This document shows positions 60,001 to 64,000 of a DNA stretch of 64,000 bases, in pieces (position 1 is the stretch's first letter; each line of letters opens with the position of its first letter). Origin of the DNA: a virus (Duplodnaviria > Heunggongvirae > Uroviricota > Caudoviricetes); IMG/VR virus record IMGVR_UViG_3300046047_000272. One strand, given 5' to 3'. Made by a program: the position numbers.

Positions 60001-63000
60001 ATCAGAAGAAGAAACTGATCGCCTCAATCGACAGGCTTGAACACCATATGGATAAGGTTATCGAAGAGGATCGATTAGCTGCTATCAGACCAGAGCTTAA
60101 TGGTCATCAACTAGCCGACTTATTAGGTATTCGTGAGGGGCGTCTTCTTGGTGACGCTTATCGACATATGCTGAATTATCGTATGAGCCATGGCGAGGTA
60201 GGCCAGCAAGCCGCAGAGGCTGAGGCTATTCGCTGGTTTCATAGTCTTCACAACGATTAAGCAGACGCTTAGATCTAGTTAGGCTCAGAACATGAGTAAA
60301 GATTCATGTTCTGAGCCTATTCTAATTGGTACTGACCGGAAAAGCCCCAAGATGATACGTTATACTAGATGAGACAAGAATCAGGATTAGACACGAGATC
60401 TAGTCTTAGAAGGCTATGACTAATCTCAGCCGGCAATGATCGTCTAATCTGATGTTATATGAGAGGGACTCGATGTCTGTTAACAATTTGATGAGACTCC
60501 TACTGCTCTTACCAGTCGTAATGACCGTCTTATCAGACGCCTCATGATGACGAGCATCTGGTATGGCTATGATGGCATCACGTTCCTGTTGATCATATGC
60601 ACTCATGATGGCCGTTGGTTTTGATCCTAGCCATGAAAGACTTGATGATCCTTGAACGAGCCATTGGCCATTGTTCTTGGTCATATGAGCAGACCAGGCA
60701 TTAGCATAACAGCGTTTGACGCCATGATGTCGTAAGGTCTTCCAATCGATGGTCTTCGTTCTGATGAGATCGTATAATCCTACGCTGACCATTTTATGCA
60801 TTAACTCGTGTTGATCGTTCAGTCCTTCTGACCATTCTGCAAGATGCTCTAATCCTCCAGAATAGGCAATGAGATCCTTTTGTATATTCGATGTGATGAT
60901 TGATCGTTCATCAGACCACCATTCTGGTTGATGCATCAGTGAATCCTGTGATGGCGACCATACTGGCTCGAAGATGATTGGATTACCTGTCTTCTTATGA
61001 TCGGTAATCATATTCATGAGAGCATGTCTGATAATCATGAGTGATGATGCGTATTCTTGCCGACCAGGACCGTGATTGATAGTGAAAGCCATCTTGTCAT
61101 TAGCTGATAGCACTGGTTGTATCGATGTGTCTTCTAACCATTGCTCTGCCTCATTCATGGTCGGCCAGTGAATCATGACCCGCCCGCGCTCATCGTGATG
61201 ATATCGACATGATGTTGGGTCCTTCGCTCTGCAGGGAACTACTTGACCATGAAAGACCACCCACGCAACATTCTTCCTCATAGTTTATAGATATGGAATA
61301 ACCGCTTTGACACTCATCGTGTGATGATTAATCCGTGTAATGATTATTTTTTATATAGTTTTTATCGTTGCTATGGCAACGTTTCTGAGGTTCTTCATAA
61401 ATTTTATTGGTGCATATGGTTGCATATCCTGTAGATGTATGTTATATTCATTATGTTAATTCATTTACGAACAATGGTTGTCTATTAAGGAGGTGTCTGA
61501 TGATGGTAATGTCATTACGATCAACGATCATATCGGAGCCTGGACAATCATTGCGTCATAATCATCAAGCAGATTGGTCACTGTCCATTAATCCTATGAG
61601 TGGAAAATCCTGCTTCGGTGATCCTAAGTATAGGTTTGAGATCGTGGAATGAATCGTTAAGTAATATAAGATTTAAGGCCCGATCCTCATGATGGAGATC
61701 GGGCCTTACGATATGTTAGCATGCATTATGCATAACGAGATGAGGGAAGATAGGTAATCCGCCTGTTTCGGGAACAGGAGAAAGCGAGTTCGAATCTCGC
61801 CGTCTCGACGCGCCGGTGACGACACAGTCTACACGATGTGTTATTATTGGTTGTGTTGCACTTGAGTAACACGAATAATTGAAGAGATCACGGTCATAAC
61901 GACACGCCAGTGATGACACGATTCACATCATGTGTTATTATGAATTGTGTTGCGCTTGAGTAACATTGATAATTGAAAAGATAACGGCTATTAGGAAAGC
62001 TTGGGAATCCGCCTGCTTTGGGAGCAGGAGACCGTCAGTTCGAATCTGACATAGCCGACGATGATCATCGAGGTCATCGCGACACGCCGAGATTGACAGC
62101 CAAGGCAAGTCACGATAGGATGATCACATAACTTAACGAGGATGGCAGTTCATTACTGCGGGAGATGTATGCGACGGTCACGATACCGGAATGTTAAAGA
62201 ATTATCGTGTTTGGTCACCATGACCACATGATTGTCATCATGTGAGCACGTGACGGAGCGCCTGAACACAGGATCGAGCATGGGGAAGACATCGCCCTTA
62301 CTAACCGATGGTGGCAACACCTGACGAGGATTACCTTGTATTCCGAGCACGCGATGATAACCCATGAGCGGGACACCAACGTCATTCATGAAACACTGAC
62401 GGCCCGTAGTCATTAAACAAGTTTCTTCAGATGAATCACATACGCAATCATACCAGTCATCATGATGGCATGAGAGCTGACCAATCAGGACGAATGATCC
62501 TGACCAATGATGAGAACAGCATGATCTCATCAGGGTATCGACCATGCCGCCCGCCGGTGAGCGTTAGCACCGGCATCTTTATTGGCTTATCGGCAAGAGG
62601 CATGCCAACGCACTGTTAATGCGTCAGAATCCCGTAAAAGGGTGTCGCAGGTTCGAGTCCTGCTAAGCCAGCTATGTCGTAGCAATACGGCAGAAGCATA
62701 TGCAGTTCGGTATGCTAGGGCAAGGTCCGATACTCCTTTGTTAGCGTATCCTTTACCGTATGATCCATTTCCAGTTTGAGAGCGAGTTGTTCTCAAAAGG
62801 TCATATGGTTTTTGCTAAGAAAGATTCGATCCTCCTCCTTTGTTTGGTGATTTTCCCGTATGACCTGTATCAGTTGAGAGTAAGTCGTCCTCAAAAGGTC
62901 ATACGGTTTTTGCTCAGGCAAGGTTCAATACTGTTCAGTTTCCTTTTCGTGACTGACTTGTTTTGGTGTTGTTTTGTTCTAAAGTAGTATTGATCACATG

Positions 63001-64000
63001 ATTACATCACCATTGTGAGCAAGAGGATAAGTTCTATTGCTCACAATGCATCATGTGGTCGTTTGTCTTTATAGTTCAACGGTAGAACTGCTGACTCTTA
63101 ATCAGTAAATCGGGGTTCGATTCCCCGTGGGGACACGGTACGCGTAATGTAAGCTAAGGGACGCCAATGGCTTACATGGTTACATTGATAATCGCGTGCA
63201 ATGACGAGGTGTAGGTGACCTGTGACCACCTTGTCATCATATCAATACGATTAACGGAGTATAGCTTGTCCGATAATCTATGTGAACCGTGCATCTATTC
63301 TGCATCTCGCGTAGGACACATCGCATACACTATGGAACATATCCGAAGCATCAAATGCCTCCAGTGATTAACTCCTATTATCGCAGACATACATGGTTAA
63401 TGATATTGAGAAGAGCCTCATTGAGGAACGGTAAGATCCCGTGCTTGCTGATCTGTTGACAACAGTGCACTTGCCAACATCATGCTCCTATGGCGAAAAT
63501 GGTTATCGCAGCGGACTTTTAATCCGTGGGTTGAGAGTTCGAATCTCTCTGGGAGCACTTAACATGTTGGTATTGGATACGTACAGGAATTCATGATTCC
63601 ACGGCGTGTCCTCCTGTTACGATGTGTTATAATAATTCTTGTAATTATTCATTACTTGATTATTGGTTCCTGATTAAGGCATCAGGTGTTCGCGGTGAGC
63701 GAACGAATTATCCGTTCGAATCGGATAGGAATCACGCAGTATCAGTAGGCTTTGAGTTAGCAGCATAGTTTAAGTACTATCATGGTTAGGCGTGACCACT
63801 AACGAGCTGAACGCTATAGCGTCCTTGTGAGTGCAATGCTCACATTATGCCTTTATGGTGGAATTGGTAGACACGACTGACTTAAAATCAGTTTCCGTGA
63901 GGAGTCTCGGTTCGAGTCCGAGTAGAGGCACAGGTTATGAGAAATACTAGTATACTGTCTCATAATGCTTGGAATGATGCATCTTTCCAGGTCTTACCGA

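What the first reader, a model, noticed from the sequence alone, without database searches (positions are those of the whole stretch)
61736..63930. tRNA cluster supplies A/U-ending codons, with repeated inter-tRNA spacers
Six tRNAs are present: Pro-CGG, Pro-UGG, Lys-CUU, Lys-UUU, Leu-UAA and the unusual GUU tRNA. About 65-bp spacer repeats (cgacacgcc.gtgatgacac...tgtgttattat..ttgtgttgc.cttgagtaaca) occur three times around the two tRNA-Pro genes.

The isoacceptor set (UUA, AAA/AAG, CCA/CCG, AAY) fits a mid-GC phage adapting translation in a high-GC host. The repeated spacers may be per-tRNA promoters or processing signals.
Basis: partly seen in the sequence, partly recalled or inferred. Interest (0 to 1): 0.5.

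Follow-up and report, generated by a model that had tools for sequence, protein, structure and literature searches.

The report
Duplicated structured spacer in phage tRNA array
This is the first stretch of a very large tRNA gene array in a giant bacterial virus, and the "repeated spacer" is one conserved, folded inter-tRNA segment that was copied once in tandem, which is an ordinary feature with a few unexplained conserved RNAs beside it.

Summary
ARAGORN alone calls a seventh, a doubtful His-GUG. The repeat is real but occurs twice, not three times. It is a 94-bp tandem duplication (61806-61899 and 61900-61993, about 79% identical, E 4e-16) of the whole spacer between the two tRNA-Pro genes. 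The third "copy" shares only a 9-mer head.

The closest relative, a 420-kb phage, has the same spacer once. Conserved features are a long G·U-rich hairpin that folds only on the sense strand and abuts the tRNA 3' end, an extended -10 box (TGTGTTATTAT) in its 3' arm, and a second hairpin.

I read the spacer as a boundary between transcription or processing units: trailer hairpin, internal promoter, leader hairpin. The duplication itself is probably incidental.

The codon argument is only partly supported:
- Pro-UGG and Leu-UAA fit it.
- Pro-CGG and Lys-CUU read G-ending codons.
- The window truncates an array that has at least 40 tRNAs in the relative.

The host is unknown. It is probably Gram-positive and possibly an actinobacterium of about 58% GC.

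Overall this is an ordinary phage tRNA array. A 520-nt and a 113-nt conserved non-coding stretch inside the array are the more interesting leads.

The parts
61420..61448 (+). Promoter-like site upstream of the array: TTGCAT, 17 nt, TG-n-TATATT.
   Evidence: GTTGC and TG.TATATT are invariant, at the same spacing, in three related phages within otherwise variable sequence. It was also found by the extended -10 scan.
61500..61652 (+). Small ORF of 50 aa with an AAGGAGGTG ribosome-binding site, followed by a GC-rich hairpin at 61674-61708.
   Evidence: Sequence and ORF list. The hairpin has 17-nt arms, 88% complementary, with z -6. The hairpin is also present in L004.
61736..61808 (+). tRNA-Pro(CGG); CCA is not encoded.
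   Evidence: ARAGORN; Rfam tRNA model, 53.6 bits.
61806..61899 (+). Spacer copy S1, the first unit of the 94-nt tandem duplication.
   Evidence: the repeat finder family D1; BLAST against S2 gives E 3.7e-16; homologous to the single spacer of L004 at 10849-10942.
61812..61851 (+). Hairpin A of S1. It has 16 pairs, 5 of them G·U, and starts 3 nt after the tRNA discriminator.
   Evidence: The sense strand folds at -18.1 to -23.8 kcal/mol (z -1.8 to -3.4); the antisense strand folds at -9.0 to -13.2 kcal/mol (z -0.4 to +0.5). In L004 the same hairpin is -26.9 kcal/mol on the sense strand and -13.2 on the antisense strand.
61839..61847 (+). Extended -10 box TGTTATTAT in S1, lying in the 3' arm of hairpin A.
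   Evidence: The 12-mer ATGTGTTATTAT is identical in S1 and S2, and L004 has GTGTGTTATCAT at the same place.
61852..61873 (+). Hairpin B of S1 (UGUGUUGC/GUAACACG).
   Evidence: Folds. L004 has a longer hairpin with a GAAA loop at the same place.
61900..61993 (+). Spacer copy S2. It carries the extended -10 box at 61933-61941 and hairpin B at 61946-61967. The outer stem of hairpin A has decayed.
   Evidence: pairs 12-15 are broken only in this copy; -13.2 kcal/mol, z -0.8.
61985..62058 (+). tRNA-Pro(UGG). It is 79% identical to tRNA-Pro(CGG) over 58 nt.
   Evidence: (family D2).
62067..62121 (+). The partial 'third copy': head ATCGAGGTCATCGCGACACGCC, then TTGACA, 17 nt, TAGGAT. It lies inside a trailer hairpin at 62062-62126.
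   Evidence: (family D7). The similarity to S1/S2 is not significant by BLAST.
62060..62582 (+). Conserved non-coding stretch of 523 nt, ending in a hairpin at 62553-62574.
   Evidence: L004 has a stretch of the same size at the same place. The two phages share no ORF there. RNAalifold finds 23 of 88 pairs with double changes. z is -3.1. No Rfam family matches.
62583..62671 (+). tRNA-Asn(GUU) with a 19-nt variable arm, U1-A72 and G73.
   Evidence: (51.9 bits).
62755..62912 (+). Two tandem terminator-like units, each a long hairpin followed by TTTTT. The hairpins are at 62755-62809 and 62856-62906.
   Evidence: the repeat finder family D3, 86% identical. Folds of -25.2 and -27.2 kcal/mol, z -3.2 and -2.6. 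The T runs are visible in the sequence.
62992..63060 (+). Hairpin of about 30 bp ending 4 nt before tRNA-Lys(CUU).
   Evidence: -33.2 kcal/mol, z -4.3; z -8.5.
63065..63135 (+). tRNA-Lys(CUU), followed by a trailer hairpin that is stable only on the sense strand.
   Evidence: Trailer z is -4.0 on the sense strand and -0.5 on the antisense strand.
63484..63557 (+). tRNA-Lys(UUU), followed by a trailer hairpin that ends in GATGTGT.
   Evidence: Trailer z is -2.6 on the sense strand and -0.2 on the antisense strand.
63625..63633 (+). Extended -10 box TGTTATAAT directly after the Lys-UUU trailer hairpin and 31 nt before the next tRNA-like gene.
   Evidence: It has the same hairpin-then-ATGTGTTATWAT layout as S1 and S2.
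63665..63734 (+). Doubtful tRNA-His(GUG)-like gene.
   Evidence: Called by ARAGORN only. The Rfam tRNA model does not report it at E<=1. It has G33 and a weak D-arm.
63736..63848 (+). Conserved 113-nt structured spacer.
   Evidence: 83% identical to L004 13174-13312 and to L096. It folds into a Y shape plus a terminal hairpin, with 2 compensatory pairs.
63849..63930 (+). tRNA-Leu(UAA). The array presumably continues past the end of the window.
   Evidence: The relative's array has at least 40 genes.

Best explanation
The region is the start of a large tRNA array in a jumbo phage of roughly 350-420 kb.

The 'repeated spacer' is the complete 94-bp spacer between tRNA-Pro(CGG) and tRNA-Pro(UGG), duplicated once in tandem in this phage. 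The relative has one copy.

The spacer is a conserved, transcribed module with three parts:
- Hairpin A is long and G·U-rich, and begins 1-3 nt after the CCA-less 3' end of the tRNA.
- An extended -10 promoter box (TGTGTTATTAT) lies in the 3' arm of hairpin A.
- Hairpin B sits where a transcript started from that box would begin.

I infer that the module marks a boundary between small transcription or processing units. Hairpin A ends, protects or directs cleavage of the tRNA-Pro(CGG) precursor. The box restarts transcription for tRNA-Pro(UGG) and what follows. Hairpin B stabilises the new 5' end.

The duplication gives two such boxes in series and is probably an incidental slippage or recombination event, not a designed 'three-fold signal'.

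The tRNAs belong to a near-complete phage tRNA supply, not a set chosen for A/U-ending codons.

What is shown: the genes, the duplication, the conservation, the strand-specific folding and the motif enrichment. What is inferred: promoter activity, cleavage or termination at the hairpins, and the host.
For: Duplication:
- establish it.
- It is identical in a second assembly.
- The relative has one copy.

RNA-level structure:
- Hairpin A folds at -18.1 kcal/mol in S1 and -26.9 kcal/mol in L004 (93% of the ensemble, z -2.9). The reverse complements fold at only -9.0 and -13.2 kcal/mol with z>0.
- 94% of cells pair, against 19-50% when partners are slid.
- The L004 and L012 strains differ by CG to UA in the inner stem, and both versions still pair.
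- Hairpin B in L004 is longer and has a GNRA loop.
- Trailer hairpins biased to the sense strand also follow Lys-CUU and Lys-UUU.

Promoter:
- There are 63 TGnTAnnnT boxes in the window. 28 lie in the 13.8% of non-ORF space, where 8.7 are expected. About 15 sit 30-92 nt upstream of ORFs on the same strand.
- A box of this kind with a TTGC -35 element is invariant in three phages upstream of the array.
- The box is 12/12 identical in S1 and S2 and 10/12 in L004, although the outer stem of hairpin A has decayed in S2.
- The same layout, hairpin then ATGTGTTATAAT, recurs after Lys-UUU.

Separate units:
- Two tandem hairpin-plus-T5 terminators follow tRNA-Asn, so downstream genes need their own promoters.

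Array size:
- The relative has at least 40 tRNAs.
Against: - There are no transcript data, so promoter activity, termination and cleavage all rest on motifs and folds.
- The -10 box lies inside hairpin A, so its conservation could be explained by pairing alone.
- The -35 position is not conserved: ACGACA and ATGACA in the window, ACCGCG in L004.
- Covariation rests on four sequences from two phages. Only 2 of 21 pairs show double changes, and the shuffle control is weak.
- Hairpin A has no U run, so it is not a canonical intrinsic terminator.
- Few other spacers in the relative's array carry a box, so the module is not general.
- The simple sigma-70 scan finds no more sites in this region than in shuffles: 8 found against 7.2 expected.
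Confidence: 0.5

Rival explanations
1. The spacer acts only as RNA. The array is transcribed from upstream promoters as long precursors. Hairpins A and B, and the other trailer and leader hairpins, are processing, insulation or stability elements (for example RNase III, RNase E or RNase Z guides, or folding insulators). The -10-like box is simply the U-rich arm of a G·U helix.
For: Folding is specific to the sense strand. Both arms, the head CGCCGGTGA and the TTATYATTGG block, are conserved, which a promoter alone does not explain. Hairpin B in L004 has a GNRA loop. Almost every spacer here is strongly structured, including a hairpin of about 30 bp ending 4 nt before Lys-CUU. Known precedent: in E. 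coli, RNase E removes a terminator hairpin that abuts the proline tRNAs (PMC5291269).
Against: The box is perfectly kept in S2, where the outer helix has decayed. The box belongs to a motif class enriched upstream of this phage's genes. Tandem terminators inside the array imply that internal promoters must exist somewhere.
Confidence: 0.25
2. The spacers are only promoters. Each copy is a host-type extended -10 promoter, and the duplication doubles transcription of tRNA-Pro(UGG) and downstream genes. The hairpins are incidental.
For: Box enrichment and positions; a conserved array promoter of the same type; the box is conserved in both copies and in L004.
Against: This does not explain the conserved head block or the strand-asymmetric pairing. 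No -35 element is conserved. Most tRNAs here and in the relative have no such box.
Confidence: 0.1
3. The duplication is neutral debris. The array is being remodelled, and S1/S2 are a by-product of unequal recombination between the two similar tRNA-Pro genes. The S1-S2 junction CGGTCATAA|CGAC may be a tRNA-Pro gene that lost its interior. The second copy has no function.
For: The two tRNA-Pro genes are 79% identical here (family D2) but have different D-arms in L004, which suggests recent conversion or duplication. The end of S1 aligns with the 5' end of tRNA-Pro(UGG). The outer stem of S2 has decayed. The array differs greatly from the relative's in gene content.
Against: About 21% divergence between the copies, with three blocks still perfectly identical (12, 9 and 11 nt), suggests selection on both copies. 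There is no tRNA-like signal in the spacers.
Confidence: 0.15

Closest known systems
tRNA arrays of huge/jumbo phages (Al-Shayeb et al. 2020, PMC7162821; review PMC13282480)
   Same: Dozens of same-strand tRNA genes in a phage of more than 200 kb that also carries translation genes. Here IF3 is at 58623-59219 and a CCA-enzyme homologue at 59274-60260. The relative has at least 40 tRNAs.
   Different: This lineage has no cultured or INPHARED relative. The part of the array in the window has unusually long spacers (about 100-520 nt) that are structured and partly conserved.
Bacteriophage T4 tRNA gene cluster with its two small stable RNAs (species 1 and 2); from my own knowledge, not checked against a paper here
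   Same: A phage tRNA cluster transcribed as precursors, with conserved non-tRNA structured RNAs embedded between the tRNA genes and tRNA-repair enzymes (PNK, RNA ligase) elsewhere in the genome. The window has PNK-RNA ligase at 7157-8632 and PNK/phosphatase at 44103-45365.
   Different: The T4 cluster is compact with short spacers. Here the spacers are long, carry promoter-like and terminator-like elements, and one has been tandemly duplicated. No expression data exist for the embedded elements.
Extended -10 (TGn) sigma-70/SigA promoters
   Same: TGnTATTAT or TGnTATAAT without a good -35 element. The motif class is enriched in this phage's intergenic space at the right distance from ORFs.
   Different: Activity is untested. 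The box is embedded in an RNA hairpin arm. Which RNA polymerase or sigma factor this phage uses is unknown.
E. coli proline tRNA transcripts, whose abutting terminator hairpin is removed by RNase E (PMC5291269)
   Same: A stable hairpin starts immediately after the 3' end of a tRNA-Pro.
   Different: The E. coli genes encode CCA and carry a canonical U-tailed terminator. Here CCA is absent and hairpin A has only a mixed U/A tail.
Codon-compensation and anti-defence roles of phage tRNAs (PMC10264068, PMC11464382, PMC11555353)
   Same: Pro-UGG and Leu-UAA match codons that are frequent in the phage and rare in candidate hosts. Lys, Asn and His tRNAs are known targets of anticodon nucleases, and the phage also carries RNA-repair genes.
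   Different: The host and its defences are unknown. The anticodon loops of the Lys tRNAs look standard. Neither role could be tested here.

Membership tests
Phage-encoded tRNA array | Several canonical tRNA genes lie close together on one strand. | tested here: met
   Six genes are found by both ARAGORN and the Rfam tRNA model (51.9-68.7 bits), all on the + strand within 2.2 kb.
Phage-encoded tRNA array | The array lies in a phage genome. | tested here: met
   The window carries RIIA, RNR, RNA ligase/PNK and a clamp loader. Relatives are IMG/VR contigs of 420 kb.
Phage-encoded tRNA array | Relatives have a homologous array. | tested here: met
   L004, L012 and L096 begin with the same order, Pro-CGG, Pro-UGG, Asn, and hold at least 40 tRNAs in all.
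Tandem duplication | The copies lie head to tail with significant similarity, and the ancestral state has a single copy. | tested here: met
   Start-to-start spacing of 94 nt equals the unit length. E is 3.7e-16. The relative has one copy. TRF did not report the repeat at its thresholds.
   Only a 22-nt head matches, at 82%. There is no BLAST hit at E<10, and the long consensus occurs twice.
Extended -10 sigma-70-type promoter | A TGn motif is followed by a TATAAT-like hexamer with A at position 2 and T at position 6. | tested here: met
   TGTTATTAT at 61839 and 61933, and TGTTATAAT at 63625.
Extended -10 sigma-70-type promoter | The motif class is used by this genome, shown by enrichment and position upstream of genes. 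| tested here: met
   28 of 63 boxes lie in the 13.8% of non-ORF space, where 8.7 are expected. About 15 sit 30-92 nt upstream of ORFs. One such box is conserved in three phages.
Extended -10 sigma-70-type promoter | Transcription starts 6-8 nt downstream of the box. | not testable with these tools
   This needs 5'-end mapping.
Intrinsic (Rho-independent) terminator | A GC-rich stem is followed directly by a U run. | tested here: not met
   This row concerns hairpin A of the spacer. Its stem is rich in G·U and A-U pairs and its tail is UUAUUAUU or UUAUCAUU. The feature is met at 62755-62815 and 62856-62912, which are long stems followed by TTTTT.
Conserved RNA secondary structure | Pairing is kept across homologues through compensatory change and is specific to one strand. 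| tested here: inconclusive
   94% of cells pair and strand asymmetry is strong. However, only 2 of 21 pairs have double changes, from four sequences of two phages, and the shuffle control is weak.
Codon-compensating tRNA set | The tRNAs read codons that are common in the phage and rare in the host. | tested here: inconclusive
   This holds for CCA and UUA. It does not hold for CCG and AAG. Asn and His give no information. The host is not identified, and the set is truncated by the window.

The most novel reading that the evidence does not exclude
The long conserved non-coding stretches inside the array may be new stable structured RNAs that this jumbo-phage lineage co-expresses with its tRNAs. 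The candidates are the stretch of about 520 nt between tRNA-Pro(UGG) and tRNA-Asn (62060-62582) and the 113-nt element before tRNA-Leu (63736-63848). They would be comparable in setting to the T4 species 1/2 RNAs or to the large ROOL/GOLLD RNAs that sit beside tRNAs in phages. The hairpin-box-hairpin spacers would then be their dedicated expression and processing signals.
Probability: 0.3. Interest if true: 0.6.

Novelty: new member of a known kind. Interest (0 to 1): 0.3.

Why it matters
For the finding as given, it matters little. Large phages are already known to carry tRNA arrays, and a one-step tandem duplication of a spacer is routine genome noise.

Three things are still worth keeping:
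- The spacer is a clear case where one short sequence seems to serve both as a DNA signal (an extended -10 box) and as an arm of an RNA hairpin. The G·U pairing would reconcile the two constraints.
- The array looks like several small units with their own promoter-like and terminator-like elements, which bears on how giant phages time their tRNA supply.
- The array holds two conserved non-coding stretches with no Rfam family. These are testable candidates for new phage RNAs.

The phage lineage itself, about 350-420 kb, has no cultured relative. It carries a pilin, a sortase and VKOR, and it came from an anaerobic bioreactor. It may deserve its own look.

Tried and rejected
Searches that found nothing:
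- A DNA search of the region against INPHARED phages hit only isolated tRNAs.
- tblastn of RNR, RIIA, the clamp loader and the topoisomerase-like ORF found no close cultured relative.
- The search for related loci with the CCA-enzyme homologue in IMG/VR found nothing.
- An exact look-up of the CCA-enzyme ORF found nothing.
- An alignment-based scan of metagenome contigs with the 291-aa neighbouring ORF found nothing.
- The same scan in IMG/VR found only a paralogue on the same 420-kb contig.
- TnpB in genome contigs had no close relative, so it gave no host clue.

Searches that returned unhelpful hits:
- The tRNA-Pro anticodon-arm pattern in IMG/VR brought in two other huge phages (L013, L014) that share only the tRNAs, not the spacers.
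- More distant clamp-loader relatives either lack tRNAs nearby or have a compact, non-homologous array (L008-L011).
- The contig of the 60%-identity relative (L002) ends before its array, so no third homologue of the spacers could be obtained.

Ideas rejected:
- The 130-aa minus-strand ORF at 62153-62545 is not a gene. It is broken in L004 and has no PHROG hit.
- The spacers are not decayed tRNAs or a known RNA family. No Rfam hit appears even at E<=10.
- Hairpin A is not a canonical terminator, because it has no U run.
- A SerRS-type identity for the long-arm GUU tRNA is unlikely. It has U1-A72, G73 and G11:C24, which fits Asn better (plus my own knowledge of identity elements).

Technical failures:
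- TRF missed the 94-nt repeat.
- A MAFFT alignment of the Pro-UGG trailer hairpins was out of register and gave no clean covariation.

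
Full report
**What is there**

ARAGORN finds seven + strand tRNA genes between 61736 and 63931. The Rfam tRNA model confirms six of them at 51.9-68.7 bits:
- Pro-CGG
- Pro-UGG
- a GUU tRNA
- Lys-CUU
- Lys-UUU
- Leu-UAA

The seventh is 'His-GUG' at 63665-63734. Only ARAGORN calls it. It has G at position 33 and a 3-bp wobble D-stem, and the Rfam tRNA model does not report it at E<=1, so I treat it as doubtful.

No gene encodes CCA.

The GUU tRNA is 89-90 nt long with a 19-nt variable arm. Its U1-A72 pair, G73 and GUU anticodon are the usual tRNA-Asn features (plus my own knowledge of E. 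coli tRNA-Asn).

**The repeat**

The repeat finder reports a head-to-tail pair of 94-nt units, 61806-61899 and 61900-61993, 78% identical. BLAST gives 79.5% over 83 nt, E 3.7e-16.

The supposed third copy after tRNA-Pro(UGG) shares only ATC..GGTCAT..CGACACGCC and a TGAC. It is not significant by BLAST.

The duplication is base-for-base identical in an independently assembled Logan contig (L001). The two copies differ by about 21%. It is therefore a real and not very recent duplication.

**Context**

The window belongs to a large phage. It carries RIIA, class Ib RNR with NrdI, PNK-RNA ligase, a clamp loader, IF3 and a CCA-enzyme homologue. It has no close cultured relative.

Clamp-loader homologues led to the relatives.
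- The nearest has 65% protein identity. It is L004, which is the same phage as a 419.7-kb IMG/VR contig whose two ends are L012 and L096.
- That phage has the same start of the array: Pro-CGG, a single 94-nt spacer, Pro-UGG, a gap of about 511 nt, then Asn. It goes on to at least 40 tRNAs for nearly all amino acids.

The window therefore shows only the first genes of an array cut by its edge.

**Anatomy of the spacer**

Aligning S1, S2 and the single spacers of L004 and L012 gives invariant blocks: CGAC.CGCC..TGA, TGTGTTAT.AT, TGTG..GC.CT and GT.ACA.

The first two blocks are the two arms of a long hairpin that begins 1-3 nt after the tRNA discriminator.
- As sense-strand RNA it folds at -18.1 kcal/mol in S1 and -26.9 kcal/mol in L004 (93% of the ensemble, z -2.9).
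- The reverse complements reach only -9.0 and -13.2 kcal/mol, with positive z.
- The reason is that 5 of the 16 pairs are G·U.
- 94% of cells pair, against 19-50% when the partners are slid.
- Only 2 of 21 pairs show double changes, from four sequences of two phages, so the covariation itself is weak.

A second hairpin follows at 61852-61873. In L004 the equivalent hairpin is longer and capped by GAAA.

Trailer hairpins that are stable only on the sense strand also follow Lys-CUU and Lys-UUU.

**Promoter-like content**

The 3' arm of hairpin A is also an extended -10 box, TGTTATTAT.
- Boxes of this class (TGnTAnnnT with at least 5/6 matches to TATAAT) number 63 in the window.
- 28 of them fall in the 13.8% of sequence outside long ORFs, where 8.7 are expected.
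- About 15 sit 30-92 nt upstream of an ORF on the same strand.
- One, with a TTGC -35 element 17 nt away, is invariant in three phages just upstream of the array.

The box in the spacer is 12/12 identical in S1 and S2 and 10/12 in L004. It has stayed intact in S2, where the outer helix of hairpin A has decayed.

The same layout, a hairpin ending in GATGTGT followed by TATAAT, recurs after Lys-UUU, 31 nt before the next tRNA-like gene.

Two tandem hairpin-plus-TTTTT units follow tRNA-Asn. The array therefore cannot be a single operon, and downstream genes need their own starts.

**Interpretation**

The best reading is a unit boundary made of three parts: a trailer hairpin, an internal extended -10 promoter and a leader hairpin. 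This boundary was duplicated once.

All functional steps are inferred from motifs and folds, because no transcript data are available. Three rivals remain open:
- the spacer acts only as RNA;
- the spacer acts only as a promoter;
- the duplication is neutral debris from remodelling of the two similar tRNA-Pro genes, which are 79% identical here but distinct in L004.

**Codon argument and host**

In 59 window ORFs GC3 is 0.45. Codon shares within each amino acid are CCA 46%, CCG 15%, AAG 71%, AAT 72%, CAT 81% and TTA 21%.
- Pro-UGG and Leu-UAA fit a supplement for A-ending codons.
- Pro-CGG and Lys-CUU read G-ending codons.
- Asn and His have a single isoacceptor.
- The relative's array covers almost everything.

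The host is not identified. TnpB gave nothing. The phage's class C sortase is 45-49% identical to those of gut Clostridia and Bifidobacterium.

The phage also carries a Gram-positive pilin and VKOR, which points to a Gram-positive and possibly actinobacterial host. This is an inference from my own knowledge of the MdbA/VKOR pilus-folding pathway.

The JGI identifiers of the relatives (Ga0455792 and Ga0455794) are close in number to those of MAGs from a dairy-manure-hydrolysate bioreactor. That community holds Bifidobacteriaceae and Actinomycetaceae of 57-58% GC (PMC9387265). The link rests only on the closeness of these identifiers and is not verified.

In small gene samples from those taxa, CCA is 11-18% of Pro codons and TTA 1-4% of Leu codons.

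The 'higher-GC host' idea is thus plausible but unproven. An alternative or additional role is supply against tRNA-cleaving defences (PMC10264068, PMC11464382). The phage's RNA-repair genes are consistent with that, but it could not be tested.

**Other features**

The 523-nt gap between Pro-UGG and Asn is conserved in size and place.
- It contains a 49-nt block that is 45/49 identical, including third codon positions.
- The two phages share no ORF there.
- It folds with z -3.1.
- One hairpin (62373-62415) keeps pairing through five double changes.
- It matches no Rfam family even at E<=10.

The 113-nt spacer before tRNA-Leu is 83% identical to the relative, more than the flanking tRNAs, and folds into a Y shape.

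These two stretches are the most novel things in the region. They rest on only two genomes.

**Verdict**

The object is an ordinary phage tRNA array with a tandemly duplicated, conserved, structured spacer.

Noticed in passing
window 62060-62582 (L004 11018-11528): A non-coding stretch of about 520 nt lies between tRNA-Pro(UGG) and tRNA-Asn, with the same size and position in the relative. It has a 49-nt block that is 45/49 identical, no shared ORF, and a hairpin at 62373-62415 that keeps pairing through five compensatory pair changes. No Rfam family matches even at E<=10. It is a candidate new structured RNA.
   Followed up: partly
window 63736-63848 (L004 13196-13310; L096): A 113-nt spacer is 83% identical to the relative, better conserved than the neighbouring tRNAs. 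It folds as a Y-shaped structure plus a small hairpin just before tRNA-Leu. Its function is unknown.
   Followed up: partly
window 62583-62671: The tRNA-Asn(GUU) has Asn-type U1-A72 and G73 but a 19-nt variable arm, like a class II tRNA. The relative's Asn tRNA is 76 nt long but has an odd 6-bp D-arm with a tetraloop. Other odd tRNAs in the relative include Ser-ACU, a two-base-anticodon call, and a weak tRNA with an oversized anticodon loop.
   Followed up: partly
window 63665-63734: A tRNA-His(GUG)-like gene is called only by ARAGORN. It has G33, a 3-bp wobble D-stem, and U(-1)/A73 in place of G(-1)/C73. It may be a pseudogene or a non-canonical tRNA.
   Followed up: partly
window 59274-60260: The CCA-adding-enzyme homologue lacks the nucleotidyltransferase head. 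It aligns to residues 221-476 of the 481-aa protein of a relative, and only the HD domain is detected by Pfam. Yet none of the phage tRNA genes encodes CCA.
   Followed up: yes
window 39157-41443, 21657-22265, 281-3451: The phage encodes a Gram-positive pilin backbone protein, a class C sortase, a VKOR homologue and a 1056-aa SpaA/SdrD_B protein. This is an unusual pilus-assembly kit for a phage, and it gives the best clue to the host.
   Followed up: partly
window 5952-8632 and 44103-45365: There is an RNA-repair gene set: HAD_SAK_2, a PNK-RNA ligase fusion, and a PNK/phosphatase. This suggests a countermeasure to tRNA-cleaving host defences.
   Followed up: no
window 62755-62912: Two tandem units of about 98 nt, 86% identical, each form a long hairpin followed by TTTTT. 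They look like strong terminators inside the tRNA array and are absent from the relative.
   Followed up: partly
window 3834-5294: A TnpB / Cas12f-like transposon protein is present (Pfam TNB domain). It has no close relative in the GTDB species genomes.
   Followed up: partly
window 43582-43590 and 44066-44074: GGCGTGTCG, the reverse complement of the spacer head CGACACGCC, flanks the small HD-domain ORF at 43600-44061 on both sides. With up to one mismatch the 9-mer occurs 22 times, against 9 expected.
   Followed up: no
L012 and L096 (IMGVR_UViG_3300044557_000292): The two ends of the 419.7-kb contig meet inside the 511-nt non-coding stretch of the tRNA array. This is consistent with a circularly permuted or complete genome broken there by the assembler.
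   Followed up: no
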